A stretch of DNA of 64,000 nucleotides from Octopus vulgaris. Lineage: Eukaryota. How positions within the stretch are numbered: position 1 is the first letter of the stretch; every line of letters starts with the position of its first letter. The stretch spans positions 29,574,001 to 29,638,000 of the forward strand of contig OX597842.1 in NCBI GenBank assembly GCA_951406725.2, written 5' to 3'. The position numbers were made by a program. Positions 18,433-20,913 of the stretch are shown here, piece by piece.

Positions 18433-20913
18433 ATATATATATGTGTGTGTGTCTGTGGGTACAGGTATATGAACCTCATTTATTTACTCCTCTCCAAATT
18501 CATTCCACCTGTTTATTAATCTGATTCTTTCTCTTTTTTTGAAATTTTTCATTTTTGCGATGCCCCCCCCCCCATCCACTTGACGCCATCTTTAATGTCT
18601 TTATTGTTTATCTTTTTTAGGTCACTCAGCGAAATAATAAAGGTTGGACACCTCTCCATCTTGCCTCGTATTATGGACACACAGACACAGCTAAACTTCT
18701 CCTACAACAAGATGGCGCTGATGTGAGGGTGGTGGACAACGCTGGTTGGACACCTCTACATCATGCCTCGTATAATGGACACACAGACACAGCTAAACTT
18801 CTCCTACAACAAGATGGCACTGATGTGAGGGTGGTGGACAACGCTGGTTGGACACCTCTACATCATGCCTCGTATAATGGACACACAGACACAGCTAAAC
18901 TTCTCCTACAACAAGATGGCACTGATGTGAGGGTGGTGGACAACGCTGGTTGGACACCTCTACATCATGCCTCGTATAATGGACACACAGACACAGCTAA
19001 ACTTCTCCTACAACAAGATGGCACTGATGTGAGGGTGGTGACCAAATATGGTTCGACACCTCTCCATCTTGCCTGTCAGAATGGACACACAGACACAGCT
19101 AAACTTCTCCTACAACAAGATGGCACTGATGTGAGGGTGGTGACCAAATATGGTTGGACACCTCTACATCTTGCCTGTCAGAATGGACACACAGACACAG
19201 CTAAACTTCTCCTACAACAAGATGGCACTGATGTGAGGGTGGTGACCAAATATGGTTCGACACCTCTCCATCTTGCCTCACGTAATGGACACACAGACAC
19301 AGCTAAACTTCTCCTACAACAAGATGGCACTGATGTGAGGGTGGTGACCAAAGCTGGTTGGACACCTCTCCATCTTGCCTCTAATCAAGGACACACAGAC
19401 ACAGCTAAACTTCTCCTACAACAAATGGCACTGATGTGAGGGTGGTGACCAACGATGGTTGCACACCTCTCCATCTTGCCTGTCAGAATGGACACACAGA
19501 CACAGCTAAACTTCTCCTACAACAAAATGGCATCGATGCCAATAAAGTGGACAATGATGGTGACACTCCTCTCCATCTGGCAGTTCAAAAGTAAGTCCCC
19601 AATGGATTTGGATTATCCAAATCTGTTTCTTTAATGTTTTCAATAACGTTTGTTTTCTTGTTTTGAGTCATTCATGTCATAATCCCACCATGGGACGTCG
19701 TGCTTCAACTCTCTCTCTCACACTCTAATGACACTGTAACCTACTTCATTAATTAATCATCATAATTATTATTGTTGCTGTTGTTACCTGACTAGATTCT
19801 TTACTTCATCTCATCCTTCGTTACCTCAACGTTACAAGTTCAAATCTTTCCTTTTCTTCTTTTCATTCCATATAAAACACCTCACCCCCTCTCTCTTGTA
19901 ATTTTCCTCTTTCCTCTGACCCTGGGCTAAATACAGAATCATTCCCTTACAGTGTTTAGTTTGATCTGTTTATGTTCCAAGTTCAAATCCTGCCAGAGTA
20001 TTTATTAACAACCTGGAGTGAAAATCTGTACCAGTAATATCCAGGGGTTCATTTAATAAATTGTCCTCCCTCTTTTGTCTTGTTTTTGTGTCTGATTGCT
20101 GTTGGGCAAAATACCTTGTGGTATTTATTTACCACACTTTATGTTCAGAGTTCAAATCCTGCTGAGGTCACCTTGTCCTTCCATCTTTGCTAGGCTAATA
20201 AAATACAATACCAGTCATGTACTGGGGTCCTTATAATCCACATTAATGCCTCTCCCCATCCTAAATTTCATGGCTATATAACAGTTGTTCATCATACCAT
20301 ATATAGATTGCCGTGTTTACTCAGGTGTGTATATATATCGTTGATCTATAATGTAGAGAGTATATCGAATATACGAGGGGGTACCCAAAAGTGGCCGGAA
20401 ACGCTTCTGTAGGGCAAGGCCATTGAAGTTCAGGCTTCTGCTGCTGGAAGCCACTTGATGCGATACTCAGGCATCAGCCTACCAAGCGGCATCTTTGAGG
20501 ATGGTGCTGTTACCATGTGGTGCATCTTTGTTTTGTAGGGCTTCTCCCCTGTTCGAGTTTTGCAATGGCTGAAATGAAGGATCAGCTTGCTTCCATGAAA
20601 TTCTGTTTTCTGCTGGAGAAAACTGCAGCCAAAACAGTTGTCATGCTTCAAACAGTTTACGAGGACACTGCCATGATGCCACGAGCAAAACACAAGATCA
20701 CGAGTGGTTTTCATGCTTTTCAAATGGTCACTTGTCACTTGAGGTCCAACCTCATTCAGGGCAGTTCCAGCACTGCTACAAATAGTGGGAAACATGTCTG
20801 GGTCGATGCATTGCTTCAAATGGGGACTACTTTGACGGTGATAATAGTGTTAATACGTAAAACTAAGCAAAGAAAATAATATTGCAAAATTCTGGGTCCT
20901 TCTTGGTCCCCAC

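What the first reader, a model, noticed from the sequence alone, without database searches (positions are those of the whole stretch)
18735..19549. Mosaic recombination between ankyrin units (combinatorial shuffling)
Seen: turn and helix variants occur in crossed combinations. TKYGS pairs with LACQN (unit 5) and LASRN (unit 7). LACQN pairs with TKYGS, TKYGW and TNDGC (units 5, 6, 9). TKAGW (unit 8) joins the TK of units 5-7 to the AGW of units 2-4. The silent CTC/CTA Leu marker also reassorts, and units 2-4 are an exact triplication. Inference: unequal crossover and gene conversion within one intron-free exon generate new specificities, with the invariant framework as recombination substrate.
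Basis: partly seen in the sequence, partly recalled or inferred. Interest (0 to 1): 0.8.

Follow-up and report, generated by a model that had tools for sequence, protein, structure and literature searches.

The report
Octopus ankyrin-repeat coding minisatellite
One exon of an octopus gene holds nine nearly identical 102-base ankyrin units that differ almost only at their binding-surface codons, a known kind of fast-evolving repeat array, and this copy is broken by a one-base deletion.

Summary
There are nine 102-bp (34-aa) ankyrin units at 18633-19549. Units 2-4 are identical, and every listed pairing is present. It puts a stop at 19437-19439 and throws unit 9 out of frame.

The exon belongs to an Octopus gene with ankyrin repeats, a RING finger and a Death domain. 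Three O. sinensis relatives carry the same array with 4, 6 and 7 units.

Variation sits at eight codons in the hairpin loop and inner helix.

Taken as whole turn and helix variants, the "crossed combinations" fit a tree. Site by site, 17 of 45 pairs conflict and the best tree needs 5 extra steps. This exceeds simple point-mutation nulls but not constrained ones. Recombination tests are marginal.

Exchange of whole units through the framework is well supported: the triplication, a framework residue specific to each gene, and chimeric terminal units.

Verdict: partly supported; a new member of a known kind.

The parts
18621..19594 (+). Array exon, 974 nt. It starts after an AG at 18619-18620 and is followed by a GTAAGT donor. 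It holds a 4-codon lead-in, nine 34-codon ankyrin units and the start of a tenth, diverged repeat.
   Evidence: Sequence and frames. Pfam Ank E=3.6e-83 with 8 stretches on 18621-19436 and E=3e-16 on 19409-19591.
18633..18734 (+). Unit 1, the edge unit. Its variable residues match the first units of the O. sinensis relatives (4-7 of 8) at least as well as later units of its own gene (best 4 of 8).
18735..19040 (+). Units 2, 3 and 4: three identical 102-bp copies.
   Evidence: blastn of unit 2 gives 100% identity three times.
19041..19346 (+). Units 5, 6 and 7. Unit 6 differs from unit 5 only at columns 14 and 24, and both states equal those of units 2-4. Unit 7 differs from unit 5 only at columns 35, 36, 38 and 39.
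19347..19447 (+). Unit 8, 101 bp. One base is missing at alignment column 79, between 19424 and 19425. It lies in a short A run, and unit 9 has A at that column.
19437..19439 (+). TGA stop reached by the frame of units 1-8 after the deletion.
   Evidence: ORF 18621..19439; translation.
19448..19549 (+). Unit 9, the terminal unit, readable only in the frame of ORF 19409..19594. Columns 16-78 are identical to unit 5. The 3' end (columns 79-99) is the terminal type, which is also seen in the two O. sinensis relatives whose terminal unit can be read.
19550..19594 (+). Start of the next, diverged ankyrin repeat, which runs on into the mini-exon at about 22096-22131.
13981..14094 (+). Upstream ankyrin exon of the same gene.
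   Evidence: 100% tblastn match to P0142 residues 1-38.
17596..17757 (+). Ankyrin exon just upstream of the array exon (approximate ends).
   Evidence: Pfam Ank on 17572-17757. 100% identity to P0142 over the 54-aa query.
22096..22131 (+). 12-codon mini-exon that follows the array in the family's frame. The deposited model P0142 reads 22095-22133 in another frame.
25749..25964 (+). Downstream ankyrin exon.
   Evidence: Pfam Ank E=1.6e-7 on 25656-25973. 90% match to P0132.
29197..29337 (+). RING finger exon.
   Evidence: Pfam zf-C3HC4_3 E=1.8e-11. 87-98% identity to 17 Octopus proteins.
30174..31169 (+). Six 166-bp tandem modules, each holding a 17-codon mini-exon and its intron.
   Evidence: TRF period 166, 6.0 copies, 97% matches; tblastn matches.
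35751..35966 (+). Death-domain exon, the last coding exon of model P0142.
   Evidence: Pfam Death E=7e-7. 100% match to P0142 residues 138-209.

Best explanation
The region is a coding minisatellite: a 102-bp tandem array inside one exon of an Octopus gene. The gene encodes ankyrin repeats, a RING finger, a run of 17-residue mini-exon repeats and a C-terminal Death domain.

Two processes act on the array.
1. Unequal crossover or gene conversion uses the 60-bp invariant framework as homology. It duplicates, deletes and homogenises whole units, and now and then joins the front of one unit to the back of another. This part is shown.
2. Point substitutions accumulate at eight codons (unit positions 1, 2, 3, 5, 10, 12, 13, 14). 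These lie in the hairpin loop and inner helix, the usual ankyrin binding face. The location is shown. Diversifying selection on target binding as the cause is inferred.

Exchange with a breakpoint inside the 42-bp variable part may add some new turn-helix combinations, but this is not demonstrated.

The copy in the window cannot be translated through unit 8 as assembled. I cannot tell whether that is a real inactivating deletion or a homopolymer error of the assembly.
For: Array and units.

Gene and family:
- Pfam finds Ank, zf-C3HC4_3 and Death on separate exons.
- 17 of 17 hits to the RING exon are Octopus sinensis or O. vulgaris proteins.
- P0142, a named O. vulgaris protein, matches five window exons at 100%.

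Whole-unit exchange:
- Units 2-4 are identical.
- Unit counts are 9, 4, 6 and 7 in the window, P0131, P0132 and P0133.
- Residue 27 is D in window units 1-7 and P0132 units 2-5, and N in all 4 units of P0131 and all 7 of P0133.
- Terminal units are chimeric in 4 of 4 genes.
- In P0133 the last two units share 8 of 8 variable residues.
- Unit 9 is identical to unit 5 over columns 16-78.

Localised variation:
- In units 1-8, 16 of 24 nucleotides segregate in the eight variable codons, against 2 of 75 in framework codons.
- Third positions segregate in 6 of 8 variable codons against 1 of 25 framework codons (Fisher p=1.7e-4).
- pS/pN is 0.240/0.358 in variable codons against 0.026/0.006 in framework codons.
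- Across 26 units of four genes, the eight variable positions carry 0.84-2.48 bits of entropy. Position 27 (0.99 bits, gene-specific) and the tail positions 29 and 31-34 (0.25-0.94 bits, mostly the terminal-unit type) also vary. The other 20 positions carry 0 bits.
- The AlphaFold2 model with a 20-row alignment has pLDDT 97.6. It places helices at unit positions 7-14 and 17-24. Four variable positions are therefore in helix 1, four in the loop before it, and none in helix 2 (position arithmetic is mine).
- PMC4986451 (passages read) states that the inner helices and the hairpin loop form the ankyrin binding interface.
Against: - The frame is broken at 19424/19425. The only exact-match deposited model skips units 2-9. 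Function of this copy is therefore unproven.
- pN/pS in the variable codons is only about 1.5, and silent differences are also concentrated there. Positive selection on amino acids alone does not explain the pattern.
- No DNA of the related genes or of other alleles could be fetched. Concerted evolution between genes rests on protein models only, and one of them (P0132) itself contains frameshifted stretches.
- Independent expansion of each gene's array from one or two units would also give a gene-specific residue 27.
Confidence: 0.65

Rival explanations
1. One reading: new turn-helix combinations arise mainly by crossover or short-tract conversion with breakpoints inside the variable part of the unit, that is, combinatorial shuffling.
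For: - 17 of 45 informative site pairs are incompatible, and the best of 945 trees needs 39 steps against a minimum of 34.
- Conflicts are fewer within the turn and helix blocks (2 of 16) than between blocks (15 of 29), permutation P=0.013.
- PHI for adjacent sites gives p=0.04.
- The silent column 24 conflicts with 8 of the 9 other informative sites (matrix).
- The only two differences between units 6 and 5 (columns 14 and 24) both carry the state of units 2-4, as a single conversion tract would give.
- Equal-rate, four-state point-mutation simulations reach 17 conflicts in only 0.7-3.1% of runs.
Against: - Taken as whole variants, turn and helix form no cycle (22 edges, 30 nodes, 8 components).
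- PHI for wider windows gives p=0.26-0.77, and NSS gives p=0.82.
- Without column 24 the block test gives P=0.12.
- With two or three allowed states per site, or more hidden hits, simulations reach 17 conflicts in 10-39% of runs.
- At the protein level in four genes the block test gives P=0.086, and turn positions 1, 2, 3 and 5 are all mutually incompatible within 15 bp.
- Unit 7's helix patch is found in no other unit of the window.
Confidence: 0.2
2. Tandem duplication followed only by recurrent point substitution at a few permitted residues, with no exchange between units after duplication.
For: - Restricted-state nulls reproduce the observed level of conflict.
- Variation is rich in transversions (9 against 4 transitions, plus 5 three-state sites) and confined to surface codons.
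- Adjacent turn codons conflict with each other across genes.
Against: - Terminal units are chimeric in 4 of 4 genes, including an 8 of 8 match to the neighbouring unit in P0133.
- Residue 27 is gene-specific and shared across a gene's units.
- The most conflicting site is silent, so selection on residues cannot explain it.
Confidence: 0.1
3. An artefact or a dead gene: the array is misassembled in copy number or in the one-base indel, or it is a decaying pseudo-exon whose variation has no functional meaning.
For: - The frameshift and stop.
- The deposited model avoids the array.
- The deletion sits in an A run.
- One published O. vulgaris assembly was built from 27.5x nanopore reads and polished with linked short reads (PMC10700109, passages read). 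Short-read polishing is unreliable inside near-identical repeats. I did not try to establish which assembly the window comes from.
- P0132, from another species' assembly, also carries indel artefacts in its array.
Against: - Eight units carry no stop, and the framework shows only 2 segregating nucleotides in 75.
- Variation falls on the same eight positions in three independent O. sinensis gene models.
- All other exons located here are open.
- Long decay would scatter changes over the whole unit.
Confidence: 0.05

Closest known systems
[quoted passage not shown]
   Same: Both have near-identical tandem ankyrin units, unit numbers that vary, and variation confined to the inner helix and hairpin-loop face. 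Concerted evolution by repeat exchange within and between family members is proposed for the fungal arrays. Window units 1-8 average 85.8% pairwise residue identity, close to that paper's 85% criterion.
   Different: The octopus proteins carry RING and Death domains and no NACHT or NB-ARC domain (Pfam lists). The host is an animal. The paper puts the fraction of such repeats in metazoans at 0.8%. Polymorphism among alleles and positive selection are not shown here.
PRDM9 zinc-finger array, a coding minisatellite (PMC3890296; search listing and start of abstract only)
   Same: One exon holds tandem near-identical units. Diversity is concentrated at contact residues. The paper calls the array a coding minisatellite.
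   Different: The fold (C2H2, 84-bp unit) and the ligand (DNA) differ. Nothing here links the octopus array to meiosis. Instability has not been measured.
Designed ankyrin repeat proteins, DARPins (PMC8683736, passages read)
   Same: A quasi-identical framework embeds a few variable surface positions that form the binding site. DARPin chains are among the best sequence matches in the PDB.
   Different: DARPins are man-made libraries with 33-residue repeats. The exact randomised positions (2, 3, 5, 13, 14, 33) are recalled, not taken from any call. The octopus unit has 34 residues and also varies at positions 1, 10 and 12.
Mind bomb 2 (MIB2) E3 ligases, the name some sources give to family members
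   Same: Ankyrin repeats followed by a C3HC4-type RING finger.
   Different: No MIB/HERC2 or ZZ domain appears in the precomputed Pfam lists of the 17 family proteins. That these domains define MIB proteins is recalled. A Death domain is present instead.
TAL effector repeats (recalled, no call)
   Same: 34-residue, 102-bp near-identical units with a small hypervariable patch. Repeat recombination is thought to make new specificities.
   Different: Unrelated fold, bacterial origin, DNA ligand. This is an analogy only.

Membership tests
Ankyrin repeat (Pfam PF00023) | Sequence match above the curated cut-off, repeated in tandem | tested here: met
   E=3.6e-83, 269 bits against a cut-off of 21.1, 8 stretches. 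Best PDB match is an ankyrin-1/ankyrin-2 chain, E=6.9e-163.
Ankyrin repeat (Pfam PF00023) | Helix-turn-helix plus hairpin loop in each unit | tested here: met
   AlphaFold2 with a 20-row alignment gives pLDDT 97.6, pTM 0.92 and two helices per 34 residues. The single-sequence model was poor and all-beta, and was discarded.
Repeat arrays with high internal conservation (criterion of PMC4986451: about 85% identity over at least 100 residues) | Unit-to-unit identity near or above 85% over at least 100 residues | tested here: met
   Units 1-8 (272 residues): mean pairwise identity 85.8%, identity to consensus 90.4%. With unit 9 included the mean is 82.4%. DNA matches are 94%. I did not run the paper's own program.
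Repeat arrays with high internal conservation | Unit number differs among alleles | not testable with these tools
   No second allele or read data. Related genes have 4, 6, 7 and 9 units.
Repeat arrays with high internal conservation | Positive selection at surface positions | tested here: inconclusive
   pN/pS is about 1.5 in the eight variable codons, from six distinct units only. No site model was run.
Concerted evolution of a tandem array | Units within a gene share changes that are absent from the same units of related genes | tested here: met
   Residue 27 is gene-specific. Terminal units resemble units of their own gene (5-8 of 8) more than other genes' terminal units (0-3 of 8). This is protein-level evidence only.
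Intra-unit recombination (four-gamete, PHI) | Site conflicts beyond recurrent mutation, with spatial structure | tested here: inconclusive
   17 of 45 pairs conflict. P=0.007-0.031 under simple nulls but 0.10-0.39 under constrained ones. PHI p=0.04-0.77. Block test P=0.013, or 0.12 without the silent site.
MIB2 / Mind bomb E3 ligases | MIB/HERC2 and ZZ domains ahead of the ankyrin repeats (recalled definition) | tested here: not met
   Neither domain appears in the precomputed Pfam lists of the 17 family proteins. The N-terminal window ORF 12228-12407 has no Pfam match.
NOD-like receptors (STAND) | NACHT or NB-ARC nucleotide-binding domain | tested here: not met
   None in the Pfam lists of the Octopus family proteins or in the window ORFs scanned.
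Somatically assembled repeat receptors (lamprey VLR type) | Somatic rearrangement of the array | not testable with these tools
   This needs a comparison of germline and somatic long reads.

The most novel reading that the evidence does not exclude
The octopus family with ankyrin repeats, a RING finger and a Death domain could be a germline-diversifying recognition repertoire. Each gene would carry a natural 'DARPin-like' library, with an invariant scaffold and eight variable binding codons per unit. Units would be gained, lost and exchanged fast enough that individuals differ. The array would be coupled to ubiquitin-ligase and death-fold signalling, in the way innate immune or cell-death sensors are built. 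That would be an animal counterpart of the fungal NLR repeat system on a different signalling chassis.
Probability: 0.2. Interest if true: 0.65.

Novelty: new member of a known kind. Interest (0 to 1): 0.4.

Why it matters
Near-identical ankyrin arrays with variable binding positions have been described mainly in fungal NLRs and are reported to be rare in animals (0.8% of repeats; PMC4986451).

An octopus-specific gene cluster that couples such arrays to RING and Death domains would be a candidate fast-evolving recognition system in cephalopods, whose immune repertoire is poorly known.

I found no paper describing it. A search for 'ankyrin repeat', 'death domain', 'octopus' and 'expansion' found 3 papers holding all four terms; the 2 listed are an Aplysia immunome study and a review of marine invertebrate immunity, judged from the search listing alone. 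A search for 'cephalopod', 'MIB2' and 'ankyrin' found 0 papers. Subscription journals and supplementary tables were not searchable.

There is also a practical point. Arrays of this kind carry indels in both species' gene models, so annotation pipelines skip or misread them.

Tried and rejected
- searched with the array exon against longer proteins. Of 8000 candidates scored, 6399 passed E<=1e-20. The 120 listed were generic ankyrins with 32-52% identity, and true relatives were crowded out. The unique RING exon and the upstream ankyrin exon found the family instead.
- The gene was searched exon by exon.
-, a single-sequence AlphaFold2 model, gave pLDDT 63.5 and an all-beta fold. It was rejected as meaningless and replaced by the alignment-based model.
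- NSS and the wider PHI windows gave no signal.
- I considered splicing inside the array. O. sinensis isoforms of the P0131 gene differ by 34 residues, but the alignment shows the difference lies in the 17-residue mini-exon cassettes, not in the ankyrin array.
- P0132 is not the orthologue. It is 84-97% identical to the window exon by exon and only 58% in the Death exon, so I treat it as a related gene.
- No eukaryotic DNA collection was open. No DNA of related genes or alleles could be compared.
- Supplementary table S2 of PMC4986451, which lists highly conserved repeats in metazoans, could not be seen. It may bear on the claim that this family is undescribed.
- Searches failed on coordinates that contained stops, and on a search term that was too short. 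All three were corrected and rerun.
- No complex prediction, atlas search or representative-library search was run.

Full report
**What is there**

The window is eukaryotic: 38% G+C, no N, and many TA/TG microsatellites. None of it looked human to me.

Positions 18621-19594 on the + strand form one exon. It is preceded by a pyrimidine tract and AG and followed by GTAAGT. The exon holds a 102-bp tandem array (TRF: 18642-19532, 8.7 copies, 94% matches, score 1447).

Anchoring on a conserved 8-mer gives nine units, starting at 18633, 18735, 18837, 18939, 19041, 19143, 19245, 19347 and 19448. Each unit encodes a 34-residue ankyrin repeat (Pfam Ank E=3.6e-83, 8 stretches).

**Check of the observation**

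Units 2-4 are identical over 306 bp. The silent CTC/CTA site (column 24) is A in units 2-4 and 6 and C in the others.

Unit 8 is 101 bp, because one base is absent at alignment column 79, between 19424 and 19425. The frame of units 1-8 therefore stops at TGA 19437-19439, and unit 9 can be read only in the frame of ORF 19409..19594.

The missing base lies in a short A run, and unit 9 has A at that column. A homopolymer miscall and a real slippage deletion are both plausible. One published O. vulgaris assembly was nanopore-based with short-read polishing (PMC10700109, passages read). I did not try to establish which assembly the window comes from.

**The gene**

I searched exon by exon and never joined exons.

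- The RING exon (Pfam zf-C3HC4_3, E=1.8e-11) found 17 proteins, all from Octopus sinensis or O. vulgaris, at 87-98% identity. Their domain lists combine ankyrin, RING and Death domains.
- The ankyrin exon upstream of the array found 16 proteins, 9 of them from Octopus. One is P0142, a named O. vulgaris protein that is 100% identical.
- P0142 maps at 100% to 13981-14094, to the upstream ankyrin exon (100% over 17596-17757; the matching local alignment, 17578-17769, is 86% because it runs past the exon ends), to 18621-18722, 22095-22133 and 35751-35966. The last of these is a Death-domain exon (E=7e-7).
- That model leaves the array after unit 1 at a GTGAGG donor-like site. It then reads the next mini-exon in a different frame from the rest of the family.
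- The same 15-mer containing GTGAGG is present in each of units 1-8 (8 matches against 0 expected).

**Family context**

Three O. sinensis proteins (P0131, P0132, P0133) carry the same array with 4, 6 and 7 units.

Over 26 units from the four genes, the main variation sits at unit positions 1, 2, 3, 5, 10, 12, 13 and 14 (0.84-2.48 bits). Position 27 and the tail positions 29 and 31-34 also vary (0.25-0.99 bits). The remaining 20 positions are invariant.

An AlphaFold2 model built with a 20-row alignment (pLDDT 97.6) puts helices at unit positions 7-14 and 17-24. Four variable positions therefore lie in the inner helix, four in the loop before it, and none in the outer helix. This is the face that PMC4986451 describes as the ankyrin binding interface.

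**Is it recombination?**

At single sites there is real conflict:
- 10 informative sites among 7 distinct unit types give 17 incompatible pairs of 45.
- The best of all 945 trees needs 39 steps against a minimum of 34. Seven trees tie.
- The silent column 24 alone accounts for 8 of the 17 conflicts.

Tests of significance are mixed:
- Equal-rate, four-state point-mutation simulations on random trees reach 17 conflicts in 0.7-3.1% of 3000 runs per setting.
- If sites may take only two or three states, or if more hits are hidden, the figure is 10-39%. Four-state runs with gamma-distributed rates give 0.3-0.7%.
- PHI gives p=0.04 for adjacent sites and 0.26-0.77 for wider windows. NSS gives p=0.82.
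- Conflicts are fewer within the turn and helix blocks (2 of 16) than between blocks (15 of 29), P=0.013. Without column 24 the P value is 0.12.
- At the protein level in four genes the block test gives P=0.086. The four turn positions, which span 15 bp, all conflict with each other, and that points to recurrent substitution.

Breakpoints inside the variable part are therefore possible but not shown.

**What is shown**

Exchange of whole or part units through the framework is well supported:
- The exact triplication of units 2-4.
- Different unit counts between a conserved first unit and a conserved terminal 3' end.
- Residue 27, which is D in window units 1-7 and P0132 units 2-5, and N in all units of P0131 and P0133.
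- Terminal units whose variable residues match an internal unit of the same gene (5, 6, 7 and 8 of 8) better than other genes' terminal units (0-3 of 8). Their 3' end is shared by the three genes in which it can be read.
- In the window, unit 9 equals unit 5 over columns 16-78.

**Pattern of divergence**

In units 1-8, 16 of 24 nucleotides segregate in the eight variable codons, against 2 of 75 in the framework. Third positions segregate in 6 of 8 variable codons against 1 of 25 framework codons (p=1.7e-4). pS/pN is 0.240/0.358 in the variable codons and 0.026/0.006 in the framework.

Silent divergence is thus concentrated in the variable codons as well. Selection on residues alone does not account for that. 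Framework homogenisation, or multi-step codon paths, must contribute.

**Comparison and verdict**

[quoted passage not shown] The octopus proteins lack a NACHT domain and lack the MIB/HERC2 and ZZ domains of true MIB2.

I file this as a new member of a known kind. The functional claim remains untested, and this copy is frameshifted as assembled.

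Noticed in passing
window 30174-31169 (+): Six 166-bp tandem modules (97% matches), each holding a 17-codon mini-exon and its intron. Family proteins appear to carry different numbers of this 17-residue repeat (by eye). O. sinensis isoforms of one gene differ by these cassettes.
   Followed up: partly
window 18720-19447 (+), one site in each of units 1-8: Units 1-8 each contain the same GTGAGG donor-like site. The deposited model P0142 uses the first one, at 18723, to leave the array. 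Whether any of these sites is used in vivo is unknown.
   Followed up: partly
window 22095-22133 (+): The mini-exon after the array is read by model P0142 in a different frame from the one the rest of the family uses. This suggests the model was forced around the frameshift.
   Followed up: partly
P0132 (O. sinensis protein), array units 5 and 7: This model has one framework residue missing in unit 5, and its last unit is read in a shifted frame. Indels in these arrays therefore also occur in another species' assembly or annotation.
   Followed up: partly
P0130, P0140, P0145, P0146, P0147 (Octopus proteins): Other family members carry ankyrin units with a second, different near-invariant framework. 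This would mean homogenisation by subfamily. Seen by eye, not quantified.
   Followed up: no
window 60480-61365 (-): A C2H2 zinc-finger array with an 84-bp period and 77-82% matches. It is a second, more diverged coding tandem array in the same window.
   Followed up: no
window 39236-40717 (+) and 9530-9997 (+): An open frame with a reverse transcriptase domain (RVT_1, E=6.5e-26) and an ORF with DUF7041. Both are probably remnants of mobile elements.
   Followed up: no
window 49032-49839: A 269-bp tandem repeat, 3.0 copies, 96% matches, of unknown nature.
   Followed up: no
window 18633-19447, units 1-8: The segregating sites are rich in transversions: 9 transversions, 4 transitions and 5 three-state sites.
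   Followed up: no
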